From: an uncultured Eubacteriales bacterium
GTDB taxonomy: Bacteria > Actinomycetota > Coriobacteriia > Anaerosomatales > PHET01
Direction of reading: 5' to 3'
DNA: 64,000 nucleotides
NCBI GenBank assembly: GCA_964500985.1
Contig: CAZCRB010000002.1
Coordinates: 36 to 64,035, forward strand
The number at the start of each line of letters is the position of its first letter. Within the stretch, counting starts at the first letter, position 1. Below the pieces are notes generated by a model. The model did no database searches, had not been told where the DNA came from, and worked only from the letters and a program-made list of their open reading frames with translations. Shown here piece by piece: positions 3,285-58,490 of the stretch. A program made the position numbers and the translations under genes.

Positions 3285-3974
3285 TCAGGAGGACACGCCC
3301 GCCAGCGCGAACAACGCCACGCGCATCAACCCGGCAAGCCAGATCTCGACGAACGTGACCGCCAGGGCGATCGTGGCGGGCAAGATCAGCTGGCTGATGC
3401 GGTCCGCCGCACGGTCGAAGGGCGGCAGCATGCCGATGATGACGAGGTTTATCGCGGTGAAGGTGGCCAAGATGCACAGGGCTATCAGCAGCGGGTAGGC
3501 GATTCCCAGCAACGGCGCGAGCCACCACAACGCCGCCCACGTCACCGGCATCGCGACGACCCACACCGCGAGGCGCCAGGTCGGATCGAGGATCCGTGCT
3601 GACGAGGACCGCTTCCACAGTTCCTCGTTGAGCATCGGCGCCAGGATCGCGGCTGAGGCGAATCCGACGCCCAACCCTGTGATGAGTCGCAGCTCGTTGG
3701 TCGTCGTCCGCAACCCCGCATAGGACGAGAAGCCGTCGAACCCCATCCAGGCGACGAGAAGGCCGAACACGATCCAAGCTGCCGCCCCGGGGAACCCGCG
3801 GCGCCGTTCTCCCCGGTGCAGGAGCGCTACGAGCGCCAGGGACACCACGAACCCGATGTAGATCCCGGTGTCGCGCGCGCACACGGGTGCCTGGATGCCG
3901 CCCCCGAAGAAGGAGCGCTCAGGGAGCTGGTGGCACAGGCCAAAGCCCAACCACTGCAGAAACGCTGAGATCAT
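3285..3974 (-). CDS. DUF2085-family membrane protein
   Basis: CHQLPERSF..PVCARDTGIY motif and several TM helices. The upstream ORF extension is the tRNA sequence, so the start was moved to ATG 3974. Confidence 0.8.
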   Translation of the reverse strand: MISAFLQWLGFGLCHQLPERSFFGGGIQAPVCARDTGIYIGFVVSLALVALLHRGERRRGFPGAAAWIVFGLLVAWMGFDGFSSYAGLRTTTNELRLITGLGVGFASAAILAPMLNEELWKRSSSARILDPTWRLAVWVVAMPVTWAALWWLAPLLGIAYPLLIALCILATFTAINLVIIGMLPPFDRAADRISQLILPATIALAVTFVEIWLAGLMRVALFALAGVSS

Positions 3975-4032
3975 GGCCACCGTCTCGGAAAAGGTAACGG
4001 CGGGCCGCAAGCGGCCCGCCGTCAGTGCCAGA

Positions 4033-4109
<77 letters not shown>

Positions 4110-4213
4110 GCGAGGGGCTATGCTAGCACGCCCCCGCTGGCGAGCCAACCCTTTTGGGCCCAGCACTTTGAACCGGGTGCTTTTGCCGCCGCATCAACGG
4201 GTCGACAGACGCA

Positions 4214-4274: not shown

Positions 4275-6446
4275 CTAGTTGAGCAGGCCCTTCTTCGCGA
4301 GGTTCACGTGGCAGTTCGCACAGAACGTCGGATCGTGGCACTCGAAGCACGGCTGAGCGCCGTCCTTCTTCACGATGTTCGGGTGGTAGCGCAGCCACGG
4401 CTTGTTGGCAACGGAACCCTTGTGGTGGCACGAGTCGCAGAATGCGGTGTCGTGACAGTTCGCGCACTGGGCCTTGTTGAACTGCTTCTTCGCGAAGCCG
4501 TCCTTGTGCGGGAACTTCTGGGGGTTGCCGTCGTCGATCTGGTGCGACATGTCGAGCTTGTGGCAGCCCTTGCAGAACGCGGAGTTCGGCAGCTGGGCCA
4601 CTTCGCCGGCGTGGCAGTAGGTGCAGACTTCGCCGTCGGACTTGTAGAGCTGCGTGTGTGCCGCAGGCTTCTTGTAGTCGCGAACGAAGTTCTTCGCCTT
4701 GTGCGACGCGGGTACGACCTTGCGCTTCGTGTGGCACGTCACGCAGTCGGTCTTCTTGTGGCACTTCTCGACACACCCGGCGGCGCCGTTGGCATTCACC
4801 GAACCGCCGTGGACCTGAATCCACGGAGTGGTGAACGACGAGCCGACGTGGTGGCAGTTGCTGCACAGCTCCTTCCACGTGTGGCAGTTCTCGCACGTGG
4901 CCTTGGTCTTGCGGCCGCTCACGTGGTTCGTCTTGAACTCAGCGGGGTGCGGCATCTGAAGCTTGTGGCAGCCGGCACAGAAGGGCGCGTTGGGGCCGCC
5001 ATCGCCGTGACAGATCTCGCACGACTCGATGGACTCTTCCGCCGAGAGAGCGTGCTTCGCGGACGGCTGGGCAGGCGTCTTGCCGTATACCGTCACCGTC
5101 GGGGTGGACGGCTTCGTCCAGTACTTCTGCTTGTGAGAGCCGGGAACCACCTTGCGGCTCGTGTGGCAGTCGACGCAGAACTTCTTGTCGTGGCACTTCG
5201 TGCACGACTCGATACCGGACTTGGCGACAGCCTGCGGGTGCTGCTGCGCGGTCCACGGCGACGCGGGATCGAACTCCCACTTCACGGCGGAGCCGTGATG
5301 GCAGTCGTCACAGAAGTGCGTCTTCTCGTTGGCACCGTGACACATCACGCACTTGGCCGGCTGCTGCTTCGAGATGGCCGGGTGACCCGCAGGATCCTCG
5401 GGGCTCTTGGGCTCCTTGAACGCCTCAGGGTGCGGCATCTCCATGCCGTGGCAATCGGTGCAGAACGTGCGCTTGTGGCACGTCTCGCAGTAGAAGATCG
5501 TCTCGACCTTGGGAAGCTTCTCGCCGACGCTCTCGGTGTCGCTCGCCCCGGCGGCCTTCTCCTCTTCGAGCACCTTGGCCACCGCGACCTGCGGAACCGG
5601 CGCAGCGGTACCCTCTGAAGTGGTGCCACCCTCGCGCTCGGCGGCGGACTCGGCCTCGCTGGTCTCGCCCTCGCCCTCGGCACTCAGGGACTCAGCCTTG
5701 GCCTTGGTGGCCTCGGCCTTGTACTCCTTGGCCATCTCACCGTGCGTGGCCGGAGCGAACTCAGAGGTGTTGTGGCTGGCCGGAACCAGATTGAAGCTGG
5801 CGGGGTGGCACGCGGTGCACGCACCCGGGGCCGCCGAGCCCTCTTCCTGGCCATGGCAGCGGAAGCACGCGGTCATCTTCATGAAGTCGGCGTGCTTGCG
5901 GTTGGGCTCACCGGTCTTGGGATCGGTGAGCGTCAAGTCGAAGTTCTCGACGTGCGCGACACGGTTGTGACACACCGGGCACGCCGCGTTGACCTCCGCG
6001 TGCGGCTTGTGGTCGATGATGATGCCCGCGCTCGGGGTCACCGAGCGGGTGTCCAGGTTGTGACACTGCGTGCACTGCTTGGTCTTCATCGTCAGTGACA
6101 CTTCGGATTCAGCGTTGAGCGGGAGCTCGAAGTTATCGGTGATGGTCAGATAGAGCTCGCCCAGTGCCTCGGCTTTGTGCAGGATGAAGATCACCGGATT
6201 GGCATTGACCGGCATGTGGCACGCCATGCAGTTGATCTTGTTGTGCGACGACGCCTGGTATGCCGTGATGGTGTCGTCTTGGACTTTGTGGCAGCCATTA
6301 GCACAGAACCAGTAGGTGGATGTCACCCCCAGCGCCACGATCATGACCGCGGCCAGCACCAGGACGCCGACACCCGTCCAGATGATGTAGCGCGGTCGGC
6401 GTACCGGGTCCTTGAACCCGGCCAGGGAGATCTTGGGCATACGCAT
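4275..6446 (-). CDS. Membrane-anchored NapC/NirT-type multiheme cytochrome c (~24 hemes)
   Basis: N-terminal TM followed by a NapC-like segment (STYWFCANGCH..YQASSH..CMACH). 22 CxxCH plus 2 CxxxCH motifs. Confidence 0.9.
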   Translation of the reverse strand: MRMPKISLAGFKDPVRRPRYIIWTGVGVLVLAAVMIVALGVTSTYWFCANGCHKVQDDTITAYQASSHNKINCMACHMPVNANPVIFILHKAEALGELYLTITDNFELPLNAESEVSLTMKTKQCTQCHNLDTRSVTPSAGIIIDHKPHAEVNAACPVCHNRVAHVENFDLTLTDPKTGEPNRKHADFMKMTACFRCHGQEEGSAAPGACTACHPASFNLVPASHNTSEFAPATHGEMAKEYKAEATKAKAESLSAEGEGETSEAESAAEREGGTTSEGTAAPVPQVAVAKVLEEEKAAGASDTESVGEKLPKVETIFYCETCHKRTFCTDCHGMEMPHPEAFKEPKSPEDPAGHPAISKQQPAKCVMCHGANEKTHFCDDCHHGSAVKWEFDPASPWTAQQHPQAVAKSGIESCTKCHDKKFCVDCHTSRKVVPGSHKQKYWTKPSTPTVTVYGKTPAQPSAKHALSAEESIESCEICHGDGGPNAPFCAGCHKLQMPHPAEFKTNHVSGRKTKATCENCHTWKELCSNCHHVGSSFTTPWIQVHGGSVNANGAAGCVEKCHKKTDCVTCHTKRKVVPASHKAKNFVRDYKKPAAHTQLYKSDGEVCTYCHAGEVAQLPNSAFCKGCHKLDMSHQIDDGNPQKFPHKDGFAKKQFNKAQCANCHDTAFCDSCHHKGSVANKPWLRYHPNIVKKDGAQPCFECHDPTFCANCHVNLAKKGLLN

Positions 6447-6644
6447 CTTCTCCTTGCTGTTCGGTCCCCTGAGAGCCCCTCAGGTGGGCGCTCGCCCACA
6501 CATTCATGAGAACCATATAAGAATGCCACACGAGCCACAACAAAAAGCGTTGTCTCAGGGCACGTTTCGACACGAGAAGGGTGCGTCCTGCCCGCACGCG
6601 ACAAAGAACCGACCACCGGGTCGGGTCGCAGTGCAGATGCGCTG

Positions 6645-7817
6645 CTAGCGGACGAGCAGCGTGTCCGCGAGCCGGTTGAGTTCGCTGATCGCCGACTGGA
6701 TCTGGCGTGAGCCCTCCGCGGCCTGCGTGGAGACCTGCGCCATCTCGCGCATGGAGATGACGACCTGGTCCGAGGCGGTCCGCTGCTGCTGGGTCGCGAT
6801 GGAGATCTGCTTGGCGGAGTCGGTGGTCTGCTCGACTTGGGAGACGATCTTGTCCAGCGAGTCGGCGGTACGGCGGGCAAGCATCTTGCCCTCCTCGACC
6901 TTCTTCTGCGCGCGCTCGGTCGACATGACCAGCGAACTGGCGCTGGACTGGATCTCGCGGACCACGCGGCCGATCTCGGAGGTGGACTCCGTCACCGAGT
7001 CGGCGAGCTTGCGGATCTCCTCGGCCACGACCGCGAAGCCCTTGCCCGCCTCACCGGCGCGCGCGGCCTCGATGGCCGCGTTGAGCGCGAGGATCTTGGT
7101 CTGCTCGGCGATGTCGTCGATGATGACGAGCACACGCCCGATCTCCTGGCTGCGCTCACCGAGCTGCAGGATCCGGTCGGACGCGATCTGCGTGGTCTCG
7201 CGAATCTCGTCGATGCCGCTGGCGGTGTCGGCCACCGCCTGCATGCCCTCCTCCGCAGACGCGAGCGTGCGCTCGGCGATGGCGGCGACGGACTGCGAGT
7301 TCTCTGCGATCTGCTTGGAAGTCTGCGCGAGCTCCTCGACCGTGGCGGAGGTCTCGGTGACCGCAGCGGCCTGCTGGGCGGCGCCACTGGCCTGCTGCTC
7401 CGTGGCAGCGAGAACCTCGCTCGTCAGCGCCCGCACGTCGTTGTTGACGGCCTTGGCCTGACCGAGCATCCCGGTGACCTCGCCAAAGAGCCGGATCACC
7501 TCCTGCTGCATCGCATCGCTGTCGCCGTCCATGTCGACGCGTACGCTGAACCGCTCAGTCGCGACCTCGAGAATGCTTCTGAACATCGATTCGCTCACGG
7601 AGGCGGCCACCATGGCACATACGACGCCGAGTGAGACTCCCGCGACCAGGCACAGCACCCAGAATGCGAGCCATGCGGACGGGCTCTTGGGCTCCACGAA
7701 GAACCCGACGGCCAGCGGGAACAGAATGCCGATGCCGAGACCCGCAGCTCCCATGTAGATGATGAGCTTCCTGCGCGTCGTCCCCATAGCGCCCTTTTTG
7801 GCCACGCCGTCCTCCAC
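6645..7817 (-). CDS. Methyl-accepting chemotaxis protein (2 TM, no obvious sensor domain)
   Basis: [37 protein letters not shown] signalling hairpin. Start uncertain (7817, 7805 or 7787). Confidence 0.93.
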
Positions 7818-34769: not shown

Positions 34770-36062
34770 CTACTTGTTGTGGCAGCGCTCGCACACGCCG
34801 CGGTTGTCGGTGCGCAGAAGCGCGCTCGACACGTTCGGGGTGACGCCGGCCTTGCCACCAACGAGCGTGGTGGTGGGCTCGACGGTCCACGTAACGACTG
34901 CGGTCGGGTGATTCACGAGGCGGGCATTGGCCCAACCGCTCATCTGAGCAGCGGTGCCGTGCGCACGGTGGCACGTCAGGCAACCGAGGTTGTCCTGAAG
35001 CTCGTACTCACCGCGAGCGGCCGTGCTGTTGGGACGGCGCTCGAGCGGCAGAACGCTCGAGGTGACCGCGTCGCTACCCCAGCCGTTGAGCTGGGTCACC
35101 GTGACCGGGGCCACGTTGACAGGGTGGCGGTGGCGAGCACGCGCGCCGACCGAAGCGGTCCCGCCGGTCACGCTGAGCGTGCCGTTGGCATCGCGAGCGA
35201 CCGTGCCGTTGGACTCGAACTGGCCGTAGTCCAGCGTGCCGGTGCGATCGTCGTACTGGGTGTGGCAAGCCGCACACCAGGTCGACATCGAACGATAGGC
35301 GGTACCCGAGTAGCCAGCCGGGAACTTGAACGCGTACTCCGCGGTCGTGTAGTTCGGGCGATACGACGCCATCTGGGTCGCGCCGGGGTTGTGCTTGAGC
35401 CAGCCGCCGTTGATCGCCGAGGCGTTCGAGTTGACGGGGTAGCCCTGCTCAGCCGAGAAGACGAACGGCTGGGGGGTGTCGCCGTTGTAACCACCGACGG
35501 TGACACCGTTGACCGTGTCCTTCAGCAGGCGGTAGTTCGACGAACCGTGCGGATCGTGGCAACCGGTGCAGGTGAGGTTCGTGCCGCCGGAAGCGGAGGA
35601 ACCCGAGCCCCACATCGGATCGGTGGCCGCACCCTTGTCCATGTCGTGCATGGAGGTCGAGATGCCGGTGTTGAACGCACCACCGTTCAGGCCGCCGAGG
35701 AACGCGGAGTTGGTCTCATACATGATCGAGCCGCCCGCGGTCTGAGTCGCAGACCCGGAAGGGCCGGAGTCGAAGAGGCCCATCTCTACGTTGGTCGAAG
35801 CGCCCGGAGCACCGTCGCCGTGGCAGGCGTAGCAGAACTCCTCCATCGTCTGCGCAGATGACACGAGCAGAGCGCTGTGGTCATTGCCCGCAACGTCTTC
35901 CCATGACAGGTTCGAGAACGAGGTGTGAGCGCGGTGACAGCCGGCGCACGCGTCGGTGTCCAGTGCATAGCCGCCGTGCGGTCCGAAGTTGGCGAACGCA
36001 GAACCGGCGGTCGCGAAGAGCGCTACAACGCTGATCGCGAGGATGATTGCTAGTTTCTTCAC
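34770..36062 (-). CDS. Secreted OmcS-like hexaheme cytochrome c (hydrogenase module)
   Basis: Sec signal peptide; 6 CxxCH in 430 aa; HGG..CAGCHRAH, CHDPHG..YRLL, MSTWCAACH, RHP, CLTCHRAH; C-terminal CERCHNK. Confidence 0.82.
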   Translation of the reverse strand: MKKLAIILAISVVALFATAGSAFANFGPHGGYALDTDACAGCHRAHTSFSNLSWEDVAGNDHSALLVSSAQTMEEFCYACHGDGAPGASTNVEMGLFDSGPSGSATQTAGGSIMYETNSAFLGGLNGGAFNTGISTSMHDMDKGAATDPMWGSGSSASGGTNLTCTGCHDPHGSSNYRLLKDTVNGVTVGGYNGDTPQPFVFSAEQGYPVNSNASAINGGWLKHNPGATQMASYRPNYTTAEYAFKFPAGYSGTAYRSMSTWCAACHTQYDDRTGTLDYGQFESNGTVARDANGTLSVTGGTASVGARARHRHPVNVAPVTVTQLNGWGSDAVTSSVLPLERRPNSTAARGEYELQDNLGCLTCHRAHGTAAQMSGWANARLVNHPTAVVTWTVEPTTTLVGGKAGVTPNVSSALLRTDNRGVCERCHNK

Positions 36063-36079
36063 TCAGTTCACCCCCTTCT

Positions 36080-38236
36080 CTAGTGGACCGCGCACGCGAT
36101 GCACGGATCGAAGGACTGGGCAACACGCAGGGCCTCAACGCCACCACCGGCACCGCCGGCGATCGGGGCACCAGCACCACCCTTGGCCGCAGTCTTGGTC
36201 AGAGAGTACTCGACGTTGAGCATCGACTGCTCCATCGGGCCCTCGACGCCGCTGTGGTCCTTGGGCGATGCGTTCCAGGTGGTCGGCACGATGCACTGGT
36301 AGCGATCGATCTTACCCGCGGTGATCGTGCACATGTGCATGAGAGCACCACGCGGAGCCTCGGTCGCACCAAAGCCCTCGGTCGTACCGGGGTTCGGGGC
36401 CATCTGGTAGTACGAGTCGGCGCCCACCGGCAGAATGCTGAGCTGCTTGAGCCAGCCCCCGTCGGCGAACGTCACGGGCAGCGCGGCGGTTGCCGGAGCT
36501 GCGACGGCGCCGATCATCTGCTGGATCAGCACGAGCGACTCGATCGCGCGGGCGCGCAGGCGGTCCATGTTGGACAGCCCGGCCTTGAGACCGAGTACCC
36601 AGTCAGCCACGGGGCCGGTGATGACCGCGTGAGCGTGCTGGTAGGCCGTGACGATCGTGGCCTTGTCGAGACCGGAGATGACCGTGTCGTCGACCACGAG
36701 GTCGGGGCCGCCACCCGCGAGGCCGCCGACAACCGTCAGCGTGGCCACGCCGGAACGGACACACGCGACCGCGAGGTCGGGGTGGATCAGCTTGGGCTCG
36801 AGGCCGGTGACCGCACCGTCGACCTTCTTGTACGCGGCGTAGCCGGTGATCCCGGGCGCAGCGACGGTCGAGGCCAGGGTCTGGCCGCCCTTGAAGATGC
36901 CGTTGACGGCCAGGCGCGCGAGCGGCCCGACCTCCATCGGGTTGCCGTTCCAGCGCGGGGCCTTGAGCCAGGAGTACTTGGCGTCATCGGTGCGCAGCGG
37001 AGCGGTGCGGACCTCGGTGCGGGGGTTCGTGATGTCGGTCGCCGCATCGATGACGGCGGTGCCGTCGGCGTTGAGGGCCGTGACCGAACCCTGATAGCGC
37101 GAGTACGTGATGTGCTCACGCAGGTTGTTGTGCACGTCGGTCTTCGAGATGAACGACTTGGTGCCGCCAGCCAGGTAGGTGGCCTTGAGCATGAAGCCGC
37201 GGCCGATACCCAGCGTGCCGTTGGTCTGCGGGAACGCACCCCATGCGAGGAAGTTGCCGCAGCCGCCGCCCCAGCCGGTGTTGGTAGCGTCCGGATCGCC
37301 AGCGGCGCTCTTGTTGCCAAGCGCCCACAGCGTCGGGTACGCGCCCTTCAGCAGGGTGGCGTTGTCGAGGTTGTCGTAGTTCGGGTACAGCGCGCCGAGC
37401 GCAAGGAACAGCGGCACGTACTCGCGAACGATGAAGTCACCGATCTCCGTCATCATCGAGCGGAAGCGGGTGATCTTGGTCGACAGGTCCTCGTTCTTGT
37501 TGGTGGTGACGCCACCGCCGACGAAGCACGAGGTCATCGGCATACGTCCGGCGAACATCGCGCCGGCCTCGAAGGTGAGGCGACGGATGCGCAGCGCCTT
37601 GACGTACTGCTTGATGACCGCCGACCACAGCTCCTTGGAGAAGCCCTCGACATCGACCGGCAGCGTGCCATGGGCAGCGTCAGCCGGATTGGCAGCCGCA
37701 CCGTTGCCCTGCGAGAGCAGGAGCGGGTGGTAGAAGCTGTCGTCGAAGTACGGCGTCCACGGCGGGACGTTGGGGCCCTGAACGTAGCTCGGGGCGGCAA
37801 GGTGATACATGTGCGTGATGCTCGACATGAGGAACTCGGCCGAGAGCACGAGGTTGCGGACGTGAACCGCCTTCTCCGGGATGCCCTGACCGGTCGGCAC
37901 GGGTACCGTGCTGCTGCCGTCGGTGCTCGAGAGCTGGTTGCCGCCCTTGACCCACGTCTGGAAGCAGTCGTTGTAGCCGAGGACCGAATCGACCGCGAAG
38001 GTCGAGGCCTGGCCGTGCGGTACCGGACACACACCGCAGATGCGCTGCGTGAACGTGATCGCATCGTTGATGTCGCGGCCGATGAGGAAGTTCTCAAAGC
38101 CACGCCACAGGTTGCCGTGGACGTCGGCGCCGGTTACTTTCTCGGCGTCGGTGCGACCGGCGATCGGGGCGGTGGTGAGCTTCACGCCGAGGTGACCCTC
38201 GATGCGTGAAATAGGATCGACTTCCTTGATTGCCAT
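36080..38236 (-). CDS. [NiFe] hydrogenase large subunit, group 1 (1a/Hys-like, Cys form)
   Basis: DPISRIEGH; L1 QRICGVCPVPH; EAPRGAL; L2 FDPCIACAVH followed directly by the stop codon. Confidence 0.95.
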   Translation of the reverse strand: MAIKEVDPISRIEGHLGVKLTTAPIAGRTDAEKVTGADVHGNLWRGFENFLIGRDINDAITFTQRICGVCPVPHGQASTFAVDSVLGYNDCFQTWVKGGNQLSSTDGSSTVPVPTGQGIPEKAVHVRNLVLSAEFLMSSITHMYHLAAPSYVQGPNVPPWTPYFDDSFYHPLLLSQGNGAAANPADAAHGTLPVDVEGFSKELWSAVIKQYVKALRIRRLTFEAGAMFAGRMPMTSCFVGGGVTTNKNEDLSTKITRFRSMMTEIGDFIVREYVPLFLALGALYPNYDNLDNATLLKGAYPTLWALGNKSAAGDPDATNTGWGGGCGNFLAWGAFPQTNGTLGIGRGFMLKATYLAGGTKSFISKTDVHNNLREHITYSRYQGSVTALNADGTAVIDAATDITNPRTEVRTAPLRTDDAKYSWLKAPRWNGNPMEVGPLARLAVNGIFKGGQTLASTVAAPGITGYAAYKKVDGAVTGLEPKLIHPDLAVACVRSGVATLTVVGGLAGGGPDLVVDDTVISGLDKATIVTAYQHAHAVITGPVADWVLGLKAGLSNMDRLRARAIESLVLIQQMIGAVAAPATAALPVTFADGGWLKQLSILPVGADSYYQMAPNPGTTEGFGATEAPRGALMHMCTITAGKIDRYQCIVPTTWNASPKDHSGVEGPMEQSMLNVEYSLTKTAAKGGAGAPIAGGAGGGVEALRVAQSFDPCIACAVH

Positions 38237-38260
38237 CTAACGTTTCCCTCCTTCCATCAC

Positions 38261-39685
38261 TTAGAGGATCACGAACGGCAGGAAGGCGTCCGGATAGCCC
38301 TTTTCCGTGCAAGCCATGCACGGGTGGCCACCGGCGACGCAGTTGCCGCCCTTGTTTCCGTTGGTTCCACCGACTCCGTAGTCGAGCGTGGAGTCGTTGC
38401 GCGGGTTCTGGCCGTTCCAGCCGTGAGGACCACAGAGAGTCATGGTCTGCGGGCCCTTGCAGCCGATGAGCTGCAGGCAGCCCGGCTCGCCCGGCTTGGT
38501 CGCGAACACGCCGTTGAGGGCGTCCTGGTAGCGCTTGCAGTACGGACCGTGCAGCGGCACACCGTAGACAGCCTTGAGGCGGCGCTGCTTGTCGACCGCG
38601 CTCGCGTTGATCGACACGTTCAGTCCGGCGCCATTGCGGTGCAGGATCTTGAGCGGGCCGTCAGCGCCGACTGCGGACTGGGTGAAGTCCACGAGCCACG
38701 CAACGACTGTCAGCACGAACCACCACGGGTTGGTCGGGCAACCGGGGACCGCGACGACCTTGTCGGCGGCAGCGATACCCGCCGCGCCGCACTTGGTCCG
38801 CAGGAACTCCTCGGTGCCAAGAGCACCGGTCTGGCCCTCGCCCAGGATCGGCGAGACACATGCCGGGTATCCACCGAAGCACGCACACTGGCCGATCGGG
38901 ATGATCGCGGCGCACTTGGGGTGGGTGGCGAGATCCTTGACGGTCTCGTCAAACGAATGCTCGGCGGTGCCGGCCTCGTTCATGCCGATGGAACACCACG
39001 CGGCGCCATCGTGCAGCGCGCCGTCGCCGGCGTTCCAGTAGCCGCCCTCGTCCTTGGGCTGAATCGAGCCCTCGACGACGAGAACGAACGGGGTGGAGGC
39101 GCCGGCCGTGTCCTTGCGGAGCTGGTCGAGCCACTGGTACGCGAGGTCGCCGCCCATACCCATGACCGTCTCATGATACTGAAGGTCGATGAAGTCGATG
39201 AGCACGTCGGCGATCGTCGCGACGAAAGCGCTGTTGCCGCCATTGGTGCCGGCAGACTCGAAGTTCACGCCGGTACCCGAAAGGGCACTCGCGGCGCTGG
39301 ACTCGAAGATGGTGCGGTGACCGTACGGGTGATCCGCACCGGTCTCCTTGGTGATGCCGAGAGCGGCCGCAGTGGCCGAGCCGGCTACGTTCCCGCCGTC
39401 GCCGTTGCCACCAACGGCGTAGTCGAGAGCCTTCAGCGTAGAGATGCTGGTGCCCTCGATAGCGGTGCCTCTGACGTCTTCGAAGAGACCCAGAAGCGAG
39501 GTCGAGCAGCCCGTGCACTCCGCGCCATGAACCCAAACCACCTTGGGCTTGTCGGTCCATGCGCCCGTCCATACGGAGCCGTGAGCAAATGCTTCGGCGA
39601 CCTTTGCGAGGTCGACTTGGCTCATGCCCATGGCCGCTGCCAGGGTGCCCAACCGGGTGACAAACTGTCGCCTGGTTATCGCCAT
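38261..39685 (-). CDS. [NiFe] hydrogenase small subunit with Tat signal
   Basis: ITRRQF twin-arginine motif; HGAECTGCS, GQCACFGG, PGCP, HGPYC, GCKGP and GHPCMAC motifs. Confidence 0.95.
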   Translation of the reverse strand: MAITRRQFVTRLGTLAAAMGMSQVDLAKVAEAFAHGSVWTGAWTDKPKVVWVHGAECTGCSTSLLGLFEDVRGTAIEGTSISTLKALDYAVGGNGDGGNVAGSATAAALGITKETGADHPYGHRTIFESSAASALSGTGVNFESAGTNGGNSAFVATIADVLIDFIDLQYHETVMGMGGDLAYQWLDQLRKDTAGASTPFVLVVEGSIQPKDEGGYWNAGDGALHDGAAWCSIGMNEAGTAEHSFDETVKDLATHPKCAAIIPIGQCACFGGYPACVSPILGEGQTGALGTEEFLRTKCGAAGIAAADKVVAVPGCPTNPWWFVLTVVAWLVDFTQSAVGADGPLKILHRNGAGLNVSINASAVDKQRRLKAVYGVPLHGPYCKRYQDALNGVFATKPGEPGCLQLIGCKGPQTMTLCGPHGWNGQNPRNDSTLDYGVGGTNGNKGGNCVAGGHPCMACTEKGYPDAFLPFVIL

Positions 39686-39944
39686 GCTGTCCCTAACCTC
39701 CTTCACACACTCTGAAGTGCTGGTTTTCCGTTGCCGAGTGGAGCGGATGAAGAAAGGCCACCTCCTTTACGCGAGCCCCATCTCGGGTTCGGTCGGAGGC
39801 GGCCTTGTCATCAGGACAGCGAAGACACCGAACGAGGGACACTGCGCCCCGTGTGGGGAATGGTGTCCTGGTCTCGTTCGAGGGCCCGATTGCCGGCTCC
39901 GACCCGTCGTACGTGATATTCGGTTTTTCAAGGCGTAACACCGT

Positions 39945-40003
39945 TTGTAACGGTTGTTACATTACCTCTGGCTAATCCTATCGCGCCCGTCCGAGGCGGT
40001 CAA
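39945..40003 (-). promoter_or_regulatory. Hydrogenase operon promoter with palindromic operator
   Basis: TTGACC (40003-39998) N17 TAGGAT (39980-39975); operator TTGTAACGGTTGTTACAT at 39945-39962. Confidence 0.75.
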
Positions 40004-40041: not shown

Positions 40042-41559
40042 TCAGCTGGTCGGCGGCTGGTCACCGGCGCGATCCGCGTACTTCTTGGAGAGCGGTGTCC
40101 GCGCGATGAACTCCTCGCTGTCGACCACGGGTGCCTCAAGGACACGTGCGATACGACGCAGCTCGGCGTCCTCGGTGCAGAAGAGCTTCGCGCGCTGTGC
40201 GACCGCCATGATGCCCGCGTCTCGCCAACTCAGCTCATAGCGCTCCTGCAGTGCGCGTGCATCCGACTCGGAGAACTCGACGGGATTCAGCAGTTCGGCG
40301 AGCGAGATGCCGTCCTGGGCGAGGCCCTTGAGGTCCTCGTAGTCCTCCGTCATGACCTCCCAGCGCACGCGGCGGATGTCCATGCGCGCGATCTCGCCTG
40401 CGGCGAACAGCGCGTACACGAAGTCAGGCGTGGCGAAGTAGCGGCGGCGGCGCAGCAACAGCAGCAGCGGCAGGAGCAGCAGCGGCGAGAGGCACAGCAG
40501 CCACCCGGTCGGCGTTGTGGGCGTCGGAATCGGGTTGGCGGCCGCCGGCCAGCCCCACACCTGGATGCGCCCGTTGGCGGTGTCGGCGATGAATATGCGG
40601 CGGCGGGCGTCGACCGACGTGTCGTTGGGGTAGCTGAACTGCCCCTCCAGCACGCCATGCTCGCCGAAGGAGACGACCTTCTCGGCCTTGCGAGCGTCCC
40701 AGATGGTGCCGTCGTGGGCGAGCGTGTCGATGACCACCAGACGGCGCGGCTCTTCCTTCTTGAGCTTGGGCAGGAAGTCGAACCCGCGCGGGAGTCCCTG
40801 CGTGATGACCATCCGCTTGTACTCGCCCGCCCGGTCGAAGACCTGGATGCGGCGGTTGTTGGAATCGGCGACCCAGACCTCGTTACCGATGACCTTGATC
40901 GAGTTGGGGAACTGGAAGACCCCGGGGCCCTCCGACGCCTCGTTGACGAGGCCGGCGGTGCCCACGCTACGACGGAACGTGCCGTCGGGCGCGAAGATGA
41001 GCATGCGGTGGCCGTTGAGTATCTCGGTCACGTAGAGGGTGCCGTCGGGCGCAAAGTCCAAGGCGACGGGCGCCCACTGGAAGCCCTGCGTATCGAACTT
41101 GGGAAGCTGGTCGGCGGGCAGCTTGGGATCGAACTGCTTCTTGAACTTGCCGTCCTTCGAGAAGATGAACACGCCCTTCTTGCGGCGGTCCGTCACGTAG
41201 TAGTCCCCCGTCTTGGGGTGCTGCGCGACGTAGAGCGGGACGAGCAGATTGCCCTTGCCCCAAGTCGCGATGTGCGTGCCGCGAGGCGTGAACACCTCGA
41301 TGGCGCCCTTGCGCGAATCGGTCACGAGGACCTTGTTGTCGGCGGAGAGCACCCCGAGCGGCCTGACCAGCTGGCTCTGCCCGGCACCCGAGAAGGAGTA
41401 CAGGTACTGCGGGGCGGGCAGCAGCTCGGCTTGGTTGAAGTCGATCTGCACACCGATCGTCCGCGTGTTGCGGTAGTTGACGTACGCGGCGCCGATGAGC
41501 GCCAGCAAGACGATGAGCGCGACTATCGCGATGATCTGACGGATTCGCCTGCGAGACAT
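40042..41559 (-). CDS. NHL-repeat beta-propeller protein with two TM anchors and a PIN-like C-terminal tail (copy 1)
   Basis: NHL repeats (FQFPNSI..VADSNNRRIQVF; FSYPND..IADTANGRIQV); TM at both ends; tail RDAGIMAVA..CTEDAELRR. Confidence 0.85.
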   Translation of the reverse strand: MSRRRIRQIIAIVALIVLLALIGAAYVNYRNTRTIGVQIDFNQAELLPAPQYLYSFSGAGQSQLVRPLGVLSADNKVLVTDSRKGAIEVFTPRGTHIATWGKGNLLVPLYVAQHPKTGDYYVTDRRKKGVFIFSKDGKFKKQFDPKLPADQLPKFDTQGFQWAPVALDFAPDGTLYVTEILNGHRMLIFAPDGTFRRSVGTAGLVNEASEGPGVFQFPNSIKVIGNEVWVADSNNRRIQVFDRAGEYKRMVITQGLPRGFDFLPKLKKEEPRRLVVIDTLAHDGTIWDARKAEKVVSFGEHGVLEGQFSYPNDTSVDARRRIFIADTANGRIQVWGWPAAANPIPTPTTPTGWLLCLSPLLLLPLLLLLRRRRYFATPDFVYALFAAGEIARMDIRRVRWEVMTEDYEDLKGLAQDGISLAELLNPVEFSESDARALQERYELSWRDAGIMAVAQRAKLFCTEDAELRRIARVLEAPVVDSEEFIARTPLSKKYADRAGDQPPTS

Positions 41560-41601
41560 GCTTGCGCTGTCCTCTCCGTGAAGGGAACTTCGGGATCGCT
41601 T

Positions 41602-42636
41602 CTACTTGCCGAGTGACGCCTGGAGCTGCGCGATCTCTTTGTTGCTCGTGTCGAGCTTCGCGGCCTCGGTGAGGACCTGCTTCGCGCCCTTCTTGTCGCC
41701 CTTGGCGATGAGGATCTTGGCGTGAAGTATCGCAGCATCGACATCGCTCGGCTCGAGCGCGCGTGCGAGCAGGACCGCCTCGACCGCCTCGTCCAAGCGC
41801 TTGTCGGCGTAGGCGGCCTGGGCCTGCTTCAGCGCGTCTTCGCCGCTACCGAGCTTCTCGAGGGCCTTGCGCGGCAGGTCGGCCTCGGGGGCGAGGTCCG
41901 CGGCTTTGCGCAGGTGCACGGCCGAGTTGATCTTGTCGTTGCGCGCCAGGAGGATGATCCCGTAAAGGTAGTGGGCCTCAGCGTAGTTCGGATCGAAGGC
42001 GAGGGCGGCATCAAGCTGCTCGAGGGCGGCGTCATCGTCCTCGAGCCCGTGGAGGGACTGCGCGAGGAGGTAGTAGGTGTCGGACGCGTCCTTGCGGATG
42101 CGCAACGACGCCTTGAAGAAGCCGGCGGCATCCTCGTAGCGCTTGTCGTCGAGGGCGATCTCGCCCAGATGGAACAGCGCGGTCTCGCGGCGCTGGTTGA
42201 TGTTCTCCATCGTCTGGCCCTCGGTCAGCTCGACGACCTTGGTGAAGTAGCGCTCTGCGTTGGCGGTGTCCTTGGTCTCCATGGCGACGAGGCCGAGGTC
42301 GAGGTACGCGCCCGTGTGCTTGTTGTCTAGCTTGATGGCGGCCTTGAACTGCTCGGTGGCATCACGGTAGACGCCGGCCGAAGCGAGCGCCTCACCGTAG
42401 CGAACGCGGGCCGCCGCGCTGTTGGGGTTCTTCTTGACGAAGTTGCGGAGCTCGACCAGCGCGCGCTGGGCCGGGGTGGCCGTCGCCTCGACGCGAGTGC
42501 TCTGCCAGATGGTGTAGCCGAACAGCGCGGCAAGGCCGAGGACTCCGGCGACGAGCGCGATGATGACGTAGCGAAGAAGCGAATCGGTCCGGTCGGAACG
42601 GACGTCGGGCGTGGCGCCCGATGCGTGTTCTGTCAT
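41602..42636 (-). CDS. Membrane-anchored TPR protein (copy 1)
   Basis: N-terminal TM; multiple TPR repeats (ALAFDPNYAEAHYLYG). Confidence 0.88.
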   Translation of the reverse strand: MTEHASGATPDVRSDRTDSLLRYVIIALVAGVLGLAALFGYTIWQSTRVEATATPAQRALVELRNFVKKNPNSAAARVRYGEALASAGVYRDATEQFKAAIKLDNKHTGAYLDLGLVAMETKDTANAERYFTKVVELTEGQTMENINQRRETALFHLGEIALDDKRYEDAAGFFKASLRIRKDASDTYYLLAQSLHGLEDDDAALEQLDAALAFDPNYAEAHYLYGIILLARNDKINSAVHLRKAADLAPEADLPRKALEKLGSGEDALKQAQAAYADKRLDEAVEAVLLARALEPSDVDAAILHAKILIAKGDKKGAKQVLTEAAKLDTSNKEIAQLQASLGK

Positions 42637-42694: not shown

Positions 42695-42741
42695 TTGTAA
42701 CTGTTGTTACGAACGATACTCGGCGCCCACAGGAGCGTCAA
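42695..42741 (-). promoter_or_regulatory. TPR-NHL (copy 1) promoter with palindromic operator
   Basis: TTGACG (42741-42736) N17 TATCGT (42718-42713); operator TTGTAACTGTTGTTACGA at 42695-42712. Confidence 0.75.
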
Positions 42742-45141: not shown

Positions 45142-46446
45142 CTACTTGTTGTGGCAGGACTCGCACACGCCCCGGTTGTCCAGGCGCAACAGCGCGCTGG
45201 GGCTGGCCGGGAACTGGTTGCGGGCGACGCCGTCAGTGTCGACGACGAGGGTGCCCGTGGCCGCGTAGCCCGTCATCGCTGCCGCAGTACCGTGGGCACG
45301 GTGGCAGGTCAGGCACTCGATCCAGTCACTGTCCGTCTTGGCGGGTGCGCCGACGGTCGAGGACTCGTTGAGCGAGTTGGCAAGCGGGATCGGCAGCGCA
45401 CCGATCACCATGGACGACTTGTCAGGACCGTTGTAGGTGCTGAGCTCGACGTTCATGGGGTGGCGGTGGCGCAGACGGTAGTTGCCGCCGTCGCCAGCGT
45501 CGTACATGGTCGCGGAGGCCGCGTACGTAGTGCCATCGGAGCGCGTGATCACGCGAACCGGCTGCAGGTACGTGCTGTGGCACCCGGTGCACCAACCGCT
45601 CATGCCCTTGGTCGGGTCCTCGACGAGGTTGCCTGCGGCAGCCTGCTTCATGTCGTAGCCCTTGGCGTAGCGCGGCGTGGTGTAGTCAGGCTGGTAGCTC
45701 GGGTAGGCCGTGTGCAGGCGGAAGCCGCCGGCGGGCCAGCCGCGCTCAGTCGACGAGACGAAGCCGTCGGGATCCGGGTTCACCGAGCTGTTGGTGTTGT
45801 CGTAACCACCCACGCGGTTGCCGTTGACCATCGACTTCAGGATGCGGTAGTTGGCGCTGCCGTGCGGGTCGTGGCAGGTCGCACAGTCCATCTTGACTGC
45901 GGTCGACTCACCCTTGTCGCGCGGCTTGCCGTTGGTCGGATCGGTACCAGGCGAACCATCAGTGGTCGCGTCGGTGGCCGACTTGCCGTAGTAGCCACCG
46001 CCGTACGCACCCCACGACGCACCCTGGTACATGTGCACCGAGGAGACCGGCACGGTGACCGTGGCCCCGAGCGAGGTGTCGTACTTCTGCATGGTGCTGA
46101 AACCGCCGCCGTTGAGGACACCGTTCTGGACACCGTAGAGCGTGCCCTCGTAGATGCCGTTCTCGACGTTGGTGTCGGCGCCCTGCGCGCTGCCGTCGTG
46201 GCAGGCGTAGCAGAACTGGTACATCTCGGTCGCGGTGCTCACGAGCAGTGCGCTGTGGTCGTTCGCGCCAGCGTCCTGCCACGTGATCGAGCTGACGGAG
46301 GTGTGCGCCCGGTGACAACCGGCACATGCGTCGGTATCGGCCACGTAGTTGCCGTGGATCGCGAAGTTGGCGTTCGCGGCGACAGGGACCATGAGCGCCA
46401 CGAGGGCGGCCAGGGCGAATGCGAGTGCGAATCTCTTGGTAGTCAT
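45142..46446 (-). CDS. Secreted OmcS-like hexaheme cytochrome c (formate dehydrogenase module)
   Basis: Signal peptide; 6 CxxCH in 434 aa; HGN..CAGCHRAH, CHDPHG..YRIL, MSGWCTGCH, RHP, CLTCHRAH; C-terminal CESCHNK. Confidence 0.82.
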   Translation of the reverse strand: MTTKRFALAFALAALVALMVPVAANANFAIHGNYVADTDACAGCHRAHTSVSSITWQDAGANDHSALLVSTATEMYQFCYACHDGSAQGADTNVENGIYEGTLYGVQNGVLNGGGFSTMQKYDTSLGATVTVPVSSVHMYQGASWGAYGGGYYGKSATDATTDGSPGTDPTNGKPRDKGESTAVKMDCATCHDPHGSANYRILKSMVNGNRVGGYDNTNSSVNPDPDGFVSSTERGWPAGGFRLHTAYPSYQPDYTTPRYAKGYDMKQAAAGNLVEDPTKGMSGWCTGCHSTYLQPVRVITRSDGTTYAASATMYDAGDGGNYRLRHRHPMNVELSTYNGPDKSSMVIGALPIPLANSLNESSTVGAPAKTDSDWIECLTCHRAHGTAAAMTGYAATGTLVVDTDGVARNQFPASPSALLRLDNRGVCESCHNK

Positions 46447-51754: not shown

Positions 51755-51815
51755 TTGTAACACGAGTTACAAGTACCGCACGTTCACCTTACTCTCGGGC
51801 GCAACCCCGCGTCAA
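51755..51815 (-). promoter_or_regulatory. FDH operon promoter with palindromic operator
   Basis: TTGACG (51815-51810) N18 TAAGGT (51791-51786); perfect-arm operator TTGTAACACGAGTTACAA at 51755-51772. Confidence 0.75.
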
Positions 51816-54396: not shown

Positions 54397-54466
54397 GCGA
54401 AGCACTCCTTACCCTGTGAGCGCCGGGCCTGCCGGGGCCCGTGCGGCGCGCATCGTTTCGAGATCG

Positions 54467-54504
54467 AATCTAGCGACGCGCCAACATTGTGTCAATTGTT
54501 ACGA
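54467..54504 (-). promoter_or_regulatory. TPR-NHL (copy 2) promoter with palindromic operator
   Basis: TTGACA (54495-54490) N17 TAGATT (54472-54467); operator TTGTGTCAATTGTTACGA at 54487-54504 covers the -35. Confidence 0.7.
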
Positions 54505-56167: not shown

Positions 56168-56192
56168 GAAGTCTGCCGCAGCTCCTTTGTCG

Positions 56193-58465: not shown

Positions 58466-58490
58466 GTGCGGGTCTCCGATGCCGGGTGTG

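What the first reader, a model, noticed from the sequence alone, without database searches (positions are those of the whole stretch)
4275..6446. NapC/NirT quinol dehydrogenase fused to a ~18-heme extension
A TM anchor and NapC-like multiheme head are followed by an acidic, low-complexity linker (AESLSAEGEGETSEAESAAE...). After it comes a long run of paired-heme repeats (CxxCH-x4/5-CxxCH..PxxH). Total: 22 CxxCH plus 2 CxxxCH. Typical NapC/CymA proteins have 4 hemes. Inference: a single-chain conduit from the quinone pool across a thick cell wall. I found no island palindrome in its upstream region, so it may be regulated separately, for example as the outward branch.
Basis: partly seen in the sequence, partly recalled or inferred. 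Interest (0 to 1): 0.7.

Follow-up and report, generated by a model that had tools for sequence, protein, structure and literature searches.

The report
Membrane-anchored 24-heme cytochrome wire
This gene encodes a membrane-anchored, NapC-type quinone-pool cytochrome carrying a built-in chain of 18 extra hemes made of three repeated six-heme units; it is a conserved but unstudied protein of uncultured Coriobacteriia, and the matching gene in a related bacterium is strongly switched on when that bacterium lives on a current-delivering electrode.

Summary
ORF 4275-6446 (-) encodes 723 aa with 22 CxxCH and 2 CxxxCH motifs. All 48 cysteines lie in these motifs, and all 24 motifs are invariant in 57 relatives.

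The head is a NapC/NirT homolog. hhalign against E. coli NapC gives 94.6% probability and aligns all four NapC hemes. The head has six hemes, not four. This copy misses the Pfam PF03264 threshold, although 42 of 57 relatives match.

The tail is three tandem hexaheme modules (33-40% identical to each other) behind a length-variable acidic tether. It has no Pfam home and no solved structural analog.

Paralogs with one module (12 hemes) coexist in the same genomes. Two-module (18-heme) forms also exist.

The gene is a syntenic core gene of Coriobacteriia MAGs (MCP - cytochrome - tRNA-Pro - DUF2085). It lacks the window's respiratory-cluster palindrome.

The EMTCatB1 ortholog (1d0898) was about 17-fold higher on a poised biocathode (PMC7943316).

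Best reading: a reversible menaquinone-pool-to-distal-partner electron wire. Whether it is rod-shaped or spans the cell wall could not be tested. Verdict: a new variant of a known kind, of moderate-to-high interest.

The parts
4275..6446 (-). Complete CDS of the 24-heme cytochrome (723 aa; stop codon 4275-4277; alternative start at M3, position 6440)
   Evidence: ORF list and GC3 0.88. 22 CxxCH + 2 CxxxCH. More than 445 full-length homologs.
6390..6446 (-). Cytoplasmic N-terminus, residues 1-19, basic (6 K/R against 1 D/E)
   Evidence: Composition. Positive-inside rule (established knowledge) gives N-in, C-out topology.
6312..6389 (-). Single transmembrane signal-anchor helix, residues 20-45
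   Evidence: Uncharged stretch, GRAVY 1.92. AF2 helix 17-42.
5742..6311 (-). Six-heme head, residues 46-235. Residues 43-166 are the NapC/NirT-type tetraheme core (motifs C48 [CxxxCH], C73, C125, C156). Two extra hemes (C194, C210) form a c7-like unit with heme 4.
   Evidence: hhalign to E. coli NapC, probability 94.6%. TIGR03153 over residues 26-165. PF14522 over residues 144-214, 42 bits. PF03264 in 42 of 57 relatives.
5502..5741 (-). Acidic low-complexity tether, residues 236-315 (pI 4.4), of variable length across the family
   Evidence: Composition. Heme 6 to heme 7 spacing is 69-141 residues (median 84), while all other spacings are nearly fixed. AF2 pLDDT below 50 at residues 261-278.
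5127..5501 (-). Hexaheme module 1, residues 316-440 (motifs 320/329, 366/379, 415/424)
   Evidence: Self-alignment of the modules, 33-40% identity, E 1e-21 to 1e-27. Six invariant non-motif His.
5031..5126 (-). Connector 1, residues 441-472, Pro/Thr-rich, containing invariant H465
4692..5030 (-). Hexaheme module 2, residues 473-585 (motifs 476/490, 518/528, 558 [CxxxCH]/568)
4632..4691 (-). Connector 2, residues 586-605, containing invariant H597
4278..4631 (-). Hexaheme module 3, residues 606-723 (motifs 608/625, 661/670, 700/709). It ends without the 'RKVVPxSH...H' segment of modules 1 and 2, so the last heme pair lacks two of the usual conserved His.
   Evidence: The single module of the 12-heme paralogs has the same ending.
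6447..6644 (-). Own upstream region. It holds a terminator-like hairpin of the preceding MCP gene (6609-6624), a conserved motif GCAGGAC-N13-GTCGAA (6566-6591), a promoter-like TTGTTG-N18-TATATG (6514-6543) and an SD AAGGAG (6450-6455). There is no TTGTAAC-N4-GTTACAA palindrome.
6645..7817 (-). Conserved upstream neighbour: a methyl-accepting chemotaxis protein without a recognisable sensor domain
   Evidence: PF00015, E 3.6e-40. Found in 58 of about 66 orthologous loci.
4033..4109 (-). tRNA-Pro (CGG) immediately downstream; it marks the end of the transcription unit
   Evidence: ARAGORN.
3285..3974 (-). Conserved downstream neighbour: a DUF2085 membrane protein
   Evidence: PF09858, E 9e-26. 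Found in 65 of about 66 orthologous loci.

Best explanation
The gene encodes a type-II (N-in, C-out) membrane-anchored multiheme c-type cytochrome. I propose it links the menaquinone pool to redox partners that lie away from the membrane.

How I think it works, step by step:
1. A NapC/NirT-type head sits on the outer face of the cytoplasmic membrane and exchanges electrons with menaquinol/menaquinone at the membrane-proximal heme 1. The homology is shown; the activity is inferred.
2. Electrons pass through the four NapC-core hemes and two extra c7-like hemes.
3. They then enter an 18-heme chain built from three tandemly duplicated hexaheme modules. This chain hangs on an acidic tether of variable length. 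Almost every heme has a conserved second histidine (23 invariant non-motif His for 24 hemes) and there is no catalytic-site signature, so the tail is a wire rather than an enzyme (inferred).
4. The distal end, whose last heme pair lacks the usual conserved His ligands, hands electrons to, or takes them from, cell-wall or surface cytochromes, extracytoplasmic dehydrogenase cytochromes, minerals or electrodes.

The direction is probably reversible. The only expression data, from the EMTCatB1 ortholog, show induction during cathodic electron uptake. The module number (1, 2 or 3, giving 12, 18 or 24 hemes) sets the reach of the wire.
For: - Motifs and their invariance.
- NapC homology with all four hemes in register, including the helix KAEALGELY against KLKASKELY and its lysine. 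PF03264 in 42 of 57 relatives and above threshold in the 12-heme paralog (48.1 bits against a cut-off of 24.1). NrfH model at E 1.2e-11.
- Topology: basic N-terminus followed by one hydrophobic helix.
- Three modules, 33-40% identical to each other.
- 12-, 18- and 24-heme architectures in public data, with 12- and 24-heme paralogs in the same genomes.
- Variable acidic tether against fixed heme spacings elsewhere.
- High heme density in the tail, 22.7 residues per heme.
- The 12-heme paralog lies next to ResB/CcsA cytochrome maturation genes and a ubiE menaquinone methyltransferase.
- The window encodes further multiheme cytochromes (6, 11 and 20 CxxCH) and hexaheme-cytochrome-linked NiFe hydrogenase and Sec-FDH-like enzymes, all possible partners.
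- EMTCatB1 gene 1d0898 was identified as the ortholog by gene order: mrcB, dnaJ, MCP, cytochrome, membrane protein. It reads 2347 TPM on a cathode poised at -0.5 V, against 137 TPM (BrES) and 130 TPM (open circuit). The authors named it a candidate for direct electron uptake (PMC7943316).
Against: - There is no biochemical or genetic evidence for any member of the family.
- The target sequence itself does not reach the PF03264 threshold, and the first heme motif is an atypical CxxxCH.
- An 80-residue heme-free tether separates head and tail. Electron transfer between them therefore needs docking, which was not shown.
- The shape and length of the tail could not be measured because no coordinates were returned. 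pTM is 0.49 for the whole protein and 0.59 for the tail, and Foldseek gave nothing.
- The gene sits among housekeeping genes with no redox partner beside it.
- The ortholog assignment in EMTCatB1 rests on synteny and annotation names, not on a sequence match to the published gene ID. That experiment had only two replicates per condition.
Confidence: 0.6

Rival explanations
1. Single-chain trans-wall conduit. The 24-heme chain is a rigid rod of roughly 15-20 nm. By itself it bridges the cytoplasmic membrane and the outer surface of the Gram-positive wall, and it reduces extracellular Fe(III), sulfur or electrodes directly.
For: - The tail's heme density of 22.7 residues per heme is in the range of known linear multiheme 'nanowire' cytochromes such as GSU1996 (from memory).
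- Wire length varies in hexaheme steps, giving 12, 18 or 24 hemes.
- Named relatives come almost only from monoderm lineages: Coriobacteriia, Ca. Aquicultor, Chloroflexi and Firmicutes.
- The ortholog is induced on an electrode.
Against: - The shape was not measurable here.
- The same genomes keep many additional multiheme cytochromes with TPR/NHL partners, which look like dedicated wall or surface components (PMC9686372). A relay is therefore as likely as a single span.
- There is no cell-wall anchoring or surface-display signal at the C-terminus.
- The flexible tether argues against a fixed rod.
Confidence: 0.25
2. Periplasm-side electron hub or menaquinone reductase. The tail does not reach outward. 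Instead it acts as a tethered collector, distributor and capacitor. It couples the menaquinone pool to the extracytoplasmic NiFe hydrogenase and Sec-formate-dehydrogenase-like enzymes, which carry their own hexaheme cytochrome subunits instead of a cytochrome b anchor.
For: - In the window, both the hydrogenase genes (36080-39706) and the Mo/Sec enzyme genes (47402-51283) are followed by a 6-CxxCH cytochrome gene (34770-36062 and 45142-46446), and no cytochrome b domain was detected.
- In EMTCatB1 the hydrogenase, the formate dehydrogenase with its multiheme subunit, and 1d0898 are all highly expressed together under closed circuit.
- NapC/CymA-type proteins are known to serve several partners (established knowledge).
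- 24 hemes give large charge storage.
Against: - The 12-heme paralog, or a tetraheme, would suffice for a hub. The reason for 18 extra hemes is not explained.
- The gene is not co-located or co-regulated with those clusters in this window. It lacks their palindrome.
- No interaction was tested.
Confidence: 0.3
3. Processed or polymerising cytochrome. The acidic tether is cleaved so that an 18-heme soluble cytochrome is released. Alternatively, tails of neighbouring molecules join end to end, with the His-poor terminal heme pair ligated by a partner, forming a longer filament.
For: - The low-complexity tether has low model confidence at residues 261-278.
- Module 3 lacks two of the conserved distal His present after modules 1 and 2. 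Inter-subunit His ligation is known from OmcS filaments (from memory).
Against: - No cleavage motif is conserved.
- The tether is conserved as a feature across more than 100 homologs.
- Nothing indicates filament formation, and there is no structural match to OmcS, OmcE or OmcZ.
Confidence: 0.07
4. Terminal reductase enzyme. One or more hemes form a catalytic site (for example nitrite, sulfite or hydroxylamine reduction) and the rest feed it.
For: - At most one heme (23 invariant extra His for 24 hemes) and the terminal pair could have an open or unusual sixth ligand.
- The EMTCatB1 genome is said to encode nitrite respiration.
Against: - There is no CxxCK motif and no long CX(n)CH catalytic motif.
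- There is no similarity to NrfA, HAO, OTR or MccA families in Pfam, NCBIfam or PDB searches.
- Nearly all hemes have a conserved second His.
Confidence: 0.05

Closest known systems
NapC/NirT family quinol dehydrogenases (E. coli NapC, Shewanella CymA, Desulfovibrio/Wolinella NrfH; Pfam PF03264)
   Same: Both have an N-terminal single TM anchor. The first heme lies directly after the helix. Four heme motifs are in register with NapC, together with the conserved amphipathic helix and its lysine. Relatives hit PF03264.
   Different: There are 24 hemes instead of 4 (5 in TorC). The first motif is CxxxCH. Two extra c7-like hemes are present in the head. The acidic tether and 18-heme tail are absent from all characterised members. 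The target itself scores below the PF03264 threshold, and far below the NrfH equivalog cut-off (44.8 bits against 134).
12-heme 'head + one hexaheme module' paralogs, annotated 'NapC/NirT family cytochrome c' in MAGs of Coriobacteriia, Ca. Aquicultor, Chloroflexi and Firmicutes
   Same: They share the same head, tether and module (51-55% identity over residues 3-439). They occur in the same genomes.
   Different: They have one module instead of three. They sit in an operon-like cluster with a 14-heme doubled-CXXCH cytochrome, ResB/CcsA and ubiE. The 24-heme gene stands alone between an MCP gene and a tRNA.
EMTCatB1 gene 1d0898 (Kobayashi et al. 2021, PMC7943316)
   Same: It is the ortholog: 50% identity over the full length, 24 motifs and identical gene neighbourhood. 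It is the only family member with expression data, being up about 17-fold on a working biocathode.
   Different: [quoted passage not shown] Its NapC head, tether and modular tail were not described in the text I could read. The organism is a thermophile from an electrode biofilm, not from sludge.
Gram-positive EET chain of Thermincola potens/ferriacetica (ImdcA, PdcA, CwcA, OcwA) and Carboxydothermus ferrireducens
   Same: This is the same functional problem: carrying electrons from the membrane through a thick wall using multiheme cytochromes in a monoderm.
   Different: There the path is divided among several 6- to 11-heme proteins. Here one polypeptide combines the quinol-pool module with an 18-heme chain.
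Modular 'nanowire' cytochromes (Geobacter GSU1996 dodecaheme of four c7-type domains; Desulfovibrio 16-heme HmcA of c3-like domains)
   Same: The chain is built by tandem repetition of a small multiheme domain, with high heme density.
   Different: Those proteins are soluble, periplasmic and made of tri- or tetraheme units. This one is membrane-anchored, fused to a quinol-dehydrogenase head, and built from hexaheme units of three close CxxCH pairs. There is no detectable sequence or fold match.
Doubled CXXCH motif domain (Pfam PF09699 / Paired_CXXCH_1)
   Same: Close pairs of CxxCH motifs. Module 3 alone scores 23.9 bits, against a cut-off of 20.6.
   Different: The whole protein scores 18.1 bits, below the cut-off. 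Only 23 of 57 relatives match at E <= 0.01. A true PF09699 protein in related loci scores 245 bits. The hexaheme module is therefore a distinct, unnamed unit.

Membership tests
NapC/NirT cytochrome c family (PF03264) | Single N-terminal transmembrane anchor, with the heme domain outside the cytoplasm | tested here: met
   Basic residues 1-19, an uncharged hydrophobic stretch at 20-45, and AF2 helix 17-42. Topology is inferred from the positive-inside rule.
NapC/NirT cytochrome c family (PF03264) | Tetraheme core whose four heme motifs align with those of a bona fide member | tested here: met
   hhalign of family profile A1 against E. coli NapC gives probability 94.6% and E 6.4e-8. Query residues 43-166 align with NapC 52-189. 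Motifs C48, C73, C125 and C156 pair with the four NapC motifs. The first is CxxxCH rather than CxxCH.
NapC/NirT cytochrome c family (PF03264) | Score above the Pfam gathering threshold for PF03264 | tested here: not met
   PF03264 is not reported for the target, even at E <= 10. It is met by relatives: 42 of 57 family members (best E 9.5e-16), and the 12-heme paralog at 48.1 bits against a cut-off of 24.1. The target is therefore a divergent member of a clade that belongs to the family.
NapC/NirT cytochrome c family (PF03264) | Conserved lysine on the helix next to heme 1, implicated in quinol binding (NrfH K82 and CymA K91, from memory) | tested here: inconclusive
   Invariant K91 aligns with a lysine of E. 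coli NapC in the KAEALGELY / KLKASKELY helix.
NapC/NirT cytochrome c family (PF03264) | Menaquinol/ubiquinol dehydrogenase activity | not testable with these tools
   This needs biochemistry.
NrfH (TIGR03153 equivalog) | Score above the curated equivalog cut-off, and partnership with NrfA | tested here: not met
   44.8 bits against a cut-off of 134.2. No nrfA-like gene is adjacent.
Doubled CXXCH domain (PF09699) | Score above the gathering threshold | tested here: inconclusive
   The whole protein scores 18.1 bits, below 20.6. Module 3 alone scores 23.9 bits. 23 of 57 relatives match at E <= 0.01.
Cytochrome c7 / c3-type triheme unit (PF14522) | Score above threshold over a three-heme stretch | tested here: met
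   42 bits against 24.8, covering residues 144-214 (hemes 4-6 of the head). All 57 relatives match.
MtrC/MtrF-type outer-surface decaheme cytochromes (PF22113 domains II/IV) | Pentaheme domains II/IV flanked by beta-barrel domains I/III; lipoprotein or secreted | tested here: not met
   The PF22113 match (46.8 bits) covers only head residues 50-201, which overlaps the NapC core. No OmcA/MtrC N-terminal or beta-barrel domain was found, and the protein has a TM anchor instead of a lipobox.
Catalytic multiheme reductases (NrfA, HAO/OTR, MccA) | Special active-site heme motif (CxxCK, CX15CH, Tyr cross-link) and family HMM match | tested here: not met
   There is no CxxCK motif. The only CX(11-17)CH hits are overlaps of adjacent standard motifs. 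No such family appears in Pfam, NCBIfam or PDB searches.

The most novel reading that the evidence does not exclude
The hexaheme module is a previously unrecognised building block used as a 'molecular ruler'. By adding modules (12, 18 or 24 hemes) to a quinone-pool anchor on a flexible acidic tether, monoderm bacteria tune the reach of a single-polypeptide wire to the thickness of their envelope. The 24-heme form would be a one-protein, bidirectional conduit from the menaquinone pool to the cell surface or an electrode. Its His-deficient terminal heme pair would be the contact or exchange site, possibly completed by a ligand from a partner.
Probability: 0.2. Interest if true: 0.85.

Novelty: new variant of a known kind. 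Interest (0 to 1): 0.6.

Why it matters
How Gram-positive (monoderm) bacteria move respiratory electrons across a thick, non-conductive wall is still known only from a few Firmicutes. In those, several separate cytochromes are thought to form a relay. For Actinomycetota there is no characterised quinone-pool entry point at all: a 2018 survey found no CymA homologs in the phylum (PMC6295460).

This family offers a concrete, testable candidate:
- It has a NapC-type anchor with a built-in 18-heme chain.
- It is conserved as a core gene across uncultured Coriobacteriia from sludge, sediments, aquifers and electrode biofilms.
- One ortholog is already known to respond strongly to a poised cathode.

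If it works as proposed, it would be relevant to electromethanogenesis and biocathodes, to subsurface iron cycling, and to the design of compact synthetic electron conduits. The hexaheme module also has no Pfam model and no solved structure, so it is a good target for structural work.

Tried and rejected
- PDB sequence searches with the protein and with the 57-sequence profile found no multiheme structure at E <= 10, apart from chance hits.
- Foldseek against the PDB found nothing below E = 3, both for the full AF2 model (pLDDT 80.8) and for the tail-only model (pLDDT 84.4). Apo models of heme-packed proteins are probably poor Foldseek queries, so this is weak negative evidence.
The 'rod or globule' test therefore remains undone.
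- PF03264 on the isolated head at E <= 10 gave no hit. The question was resolved instead by hhalign against E. coli NapC and by family-level Pfam counts.
- I checked whether the extra modules derive from the 14-heme partner of the 12-heme paralog. There is no significant similarity to the target, so tandem duplication of the protein's own module is the better explanation.
- I looked for the source contig by exact protein match; it is not on record.
- RNA runs: only low-depth contigs, some near-identical, in soil and sediment metatranscriptomes. This is too thin to claim in-situ expression of this exact gene.
- Literature searches for a description of this architecture found none. The Anaerosomatales paper lists multihemes only in general terms.
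- A third homolog search, seeded with the EMTCatB1 ortholog, found no named cultured organism.
- I considered a functional MCP-cytochrome operon. It is judged unlikely because of the terminator-like hairpin, the promoter-like element conserved in the closest relatives, and the 16-fold transcript difference in EMTCatB1. The adjacency is, however, conserved in 58 loci.
Full report
**1. Observation**

The window is high-GC DNA (64-72% GC). The ORF at 4275-6446 on the minus strand encodes 723 aa, has the codon bias of a real gene (GC3 0.88), and is preceded by AAGGAG (6450-6455). It contains 22 CxxCH and 2 CxxxCH motifs. Every one of its 48 cysteines lies in such a motif, whereas shuffled sequences give 0.2 CxxCH on average. 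In an alignment of 57 homologs (50-70% identical), all 24 motifs are invariant. So are 23 further histidines: 7 in the head and 16 in the tail.

Three corrections apply. The head has six motifs (48, 73, 125, 156, 194, 210). The intra-pair gap is 4-5 residues in only six of the nine tail pairs. The database version of the protein starts at M3, giving 721 aa.

**2. Anatomy**

- Residues 1-19 are basic, and residues 20-45 form one uncharged hydrophobic helix. By the positive-inside rule this gives an N-in, C-out signal anchor.
- Residues 46-235 form the six-heme head.
- Residues 236-315 form an acidic low-complexity tether (pI 4.4). The spacing it creates between heme 6 and heme 7 varies from 69 to 141 residues among 103 homologs, while every other heme-to-heme spacing is nearly fixed.
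- The tail (316-723, pI 8.6, 22.7 residues per heme) is three tandem hexaheme modules: 316-440, 473-585 and 606-723. They are 33-40% identical pairwise (BLASTP E 1e-21 to 1e-27). Weaker off-register matches show that each module is itself three diheme units.
- Modules 1 and 2 are each followed by an invariant 'RKVVPxSH ... H' segment in the connector. Module 3 ends without it, so the last heme pair lacks two of the conserved histidines.

**3. Is the head NapC/NirT?**

For this sequence Pfam reports only generic multiheme families (PF22113, PF14522) and not PF03264, even at E <= 10 on the isolated head. However:
- 42 of 57 relatives hit PF03264, with a best E of 9.5e-16.
- The 12-heme paralog passes the threshold at 48.1 bits against 24.1.
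- The NCBIfam NrfH model covers residues 26-165 end to end at E 1.2e-11, far below its equivalog cut-off.
- A profile of the family aligned to E. coli NapC (fetched) gives 94.6% probability and E 6.4e-8. All four NapC heme motifs pair with C48, C73, C125 and C156. The helix KAEALGELY pairs with KLKASKELY, including invariant K91.

The head is thus a divergent NapC/NirT homolog with an atypical CxxxCH first heme and two additional hemes that, with heme 4, score as a c7-type unit (residues 144-214).

**4. The tail**

No Pfam or NCBIfam family describes the module. PF09699 is marginal: 18.1 bits for the whole protein and 23.9 bits for module 3 alone. A genuine PF09699 protein in related loci scores 245 bits. 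PDB sequence and profile searches found nothing. AlphaFold2 gave confident local structure: pLDDT 80.8 and pTM 0.49 for the whole protein, and pLDDT 84.4 and pTM 0.59 for the tail alone. Foldseek found no solved analog. Coordinates were not returned, so the rod-or-globule question could not be answered.

**5. Distribution and evolution**

More than 445 full-length homologs exist, nearly all unnamed or called 'NapC/NirT family cytochrome c' in Coriobacteriia or Actinomycetota MAGs. A scan of one genome per species found 161 relatives. About 66 of the 80 retained loci carry the 24-heme form. Fourteen carry a paralog of 390-410 aa with 12 hemes: head, tether and one module, 51-55% identical over residues 3-439. 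At least eight of these come from genomes that also have the long form.

A profile of the module searched against 1.84 billion cluster representatives found 981 clusters at E <= 1e-3 and 260 at E <= 1e-10. The architectures were head plus 1, 2 or 3 modules (12, 18 or 24 hemes), along with other proteins of up to about 32 hemes. The 12-heme form also occurs in MAGs named Ca. Aquicultor, Chloroflexi/Anaerolineae and Firmicutes. The long form is therefore best explained by tandem duplication of the protein's own module. It is not a fusion with the 14-heme neighbour of the short paralog, which shows no similarity to it.

**6. Genomic context**

The order PBP1 - DnaJ - (DUF362) - MCP - 24-heme gene - tRNA-Pro - DUF2085 - DUF6812 - SAM hydroxide adenosyltransferase - HD protein is conserved down to 46% cytochrome identity. 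The MCP is present in 58 loci and DUF2085 in 65. This is a vertically inherited core locus, not part of the window's respiratory island.

A terminator-like hairpin follows the MCP stop codon (6609-6624). Two upstream elements are conserved among relatives:
- a promoter-like element, which reads TTGTTG-N18-TATATG in the window (6514-6543); a related pattern, GTTGT-N15-20-TnTA[TG]A, is present in 9 of 68 loci, the closest relatives;
- a GCAGGR-N8-16-GTCGAA motif (6566-6591), present in 29 of 68 loci against 1 of 340 control pieces.

It occurs five times (0.11 expected), upstream of the hydrogenase, TPR/NHL, Sec-FDH-like and cytochrome clusters, and not upstream of this gene.

By contrast, the 12-heme paralog lies beside a 14-heme doubled-CXXCH cytochrome, ResB and CcsA (system II cytochrome c maturation), a ubiE methyltransferase, a B12-radical-SAM protein and an amidohydrolase.

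**7. Expression evidence from the literature**

One of the 24-heme loci (L028) is from Coriobacteriaceae sp. EMTCatB1, the dominant bacterium of a thermophilic electromethanogenic biocathode. In Table S5 of Kobayashi et al. 2021 (PMC7943316), the consecutive genes are 1d0895 (mrcB), 1d0896 (dnaJ), 1d0897 (tar/frzCD), 1d0898 (multiheme cytochrome c domain protein) and 1d0899 (predicted membrane protein). This reproduces the gene order of L028, so 1d0898 is the ortholog: 689 aa, 21 + 3 motifs, 50% identity.

Its TPM is 2347 under closed circuit (cathode at -0.5 V vs SHE), against 137 with BrES and 130 at open circuit. The neighbouring MCP reads only 143/40/51. [quoted passage not shown]

Cultured relatives of the order Anaerosomatales reduce Fe(III) or sulfur compounds and encode 17-18 multihemes, but this protein is not singled out (PMC9686372). 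A 2018 survey found no CymA homologs in Actinobacteria (PMC6295460). In soil and sediment metatranscriptomes only thin contigs, some near-identical, map to the gene.

**8. Mechanism**

Shown:
- homology of the head to NapC/NirT;
- motif and histidine conservation;
- modular tail and variable tether;
- paralog series;
- independent locus;
- electrode-responsive ortholog.

Inferred:
- The head exchanges electrons with menaquinone at heme 1.
- The nearly complete set of second histidines, and the absence of any catalytic motif, make all hemes electron-transfer centres.
- The tethered tail docks on the head and carries electrons to or from distal partners.
- Direction is reversible, as known for CymA-type proteins (established knowledge).

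The rivals differ mainly in where the tail ends:
- at the cell surface (single-chain conduit, about 0.25);
- at extracytoplasmic dehydrogenases that carry hexaheme subunits (hub, about 0.3; supported by the window's hydrogenase and Sec-FDH-like clusters);
- in a processed or polymerised form (about 0.07);
- at a catalytic heme (about 0.05).

**9. Novelty and verdict**

The sequences are already in public databases under a generic name, and one ortholog has been flagged as a multiheme cytochrome of interest. I found no description of the architecture: a six-heme NapC-type head, an acidic tether and three hexaheme modules, with 12- and 18-heme siblings. It is a new variant of a known kind (NapC/NirT quinol dehydrogenases, multiheme wires), not a new category.

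Interest is 0.6. A specialist would find a 24-heme CymA-like protein in Actinomycetota notable, and it makes the Gram-positive electron-conduit question directly testable. However, function, shape and partners remain unproven.

Noticed in passing
window 39945-39962, 42695-42712, 51755-51772, 54487-54504, 59467-59484: The palindrome TTGTAAC-N4-GTTACAA occurs five times (0.11 expected by shuffling). All copies lie in intergenic DNA upstream of the NiFe hydrogenase, TPR/NHL, Sec-formate-dehydrogenase-like and multiheme cytochrome clusters. It resembles a Rex-type operator (from memory) and probably defines a redox regulon that excludes the 24-heme gene.
   Followed up: partly
window 47402-51283 (-): The two ORFs 50630-51283 (TAT signal plus Mo Fe4S4 domain) and 47402-50617 (molybdopterin oxidoreductase) form one 1293-codon frame. 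It is interrupted by a single TGA inside '...VEHQARI*HSSTVAGL...'. This is the hallmark of a selenocysteine formate-dehydrogenase-type catalytic subunit. It is followed by a 4Fe-4S subunit and a 6-CxxCH cytochrome instead of a cytochrome b.
   Followed up: partly
window 34770-39706 (-): The NiFe hydrogenase small subunit (481 aa) and an unusually long large subunit (718 aa) are followed by a 6-CxxCH doubled-CXXCH cytochrome (34770-36062). This suggests hydrogenase-to-cytochrome c coupling rather than a cytochrome b anchor.
   Followed up: no
window 40042-42636 and 51843-54405 (-): There are two copies of a TPR-protein plus NHL-repeat beta-propeller gene pair, each next to a cytochrome or oxidoreductase cluster. 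Next to 54551-58612 lie three multiheme cytochromes with 20, 11 and 6 CxxCH.
   Followed up: no
window 6566-6591 (-); loci L001-L077 upstream of the ortholog: The motif GCAGGR-N8-16-GTCGAA lies about 131 nt upstream of the start codon in 29 of 68 orthologous loci, against 1 of 340 control pieces. It may be a regulator site or an alternative-sigma promoter. Its function is unknown.
   Followed up: partly
L067-L080 (e.g. L068:4478-7236): The 12-heme paralog (head plus one module) is always preceded by a TM-anchored cytochrome of about 490 aa with 14 CxxCH (PF09699, 245 bits). It lies near ResB/CcsA, ubiE, a B12-radical-SAM gene and an amidohydrolase, which looks like a cytochrome maturation and menaquinone neighbourhood.
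   Followed up: partly
window 6645-7817 (-): An MCP with two N-terminal TM segments and no recognisable sensor or HAMP domain lies immediately upstream of the cytochrome gene in 58 of about 66 loci. In EMTCatB1 it is about 3-fold up under closed circuit. A role in energy or redox taxis is possible but untested.
   Followed up: partly
window 3285-4166 (-) and 4033-4109 (-): The longest ORF for the DUF2085 gene runs through tRNA-Pro(CGG). The real DUF2085 start is probably the internal Met near 3974.
   Followed up: no
P0134, P0135, P0142, P0144 (representative proteins): Distant relatives carrying the same module type reach 26-32 heme motifs in 630-725 aa (about 22 residues per heme), some with the NapC-like head. 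Their taxonomy is unknown because the library holds no names.
   Followed up: no
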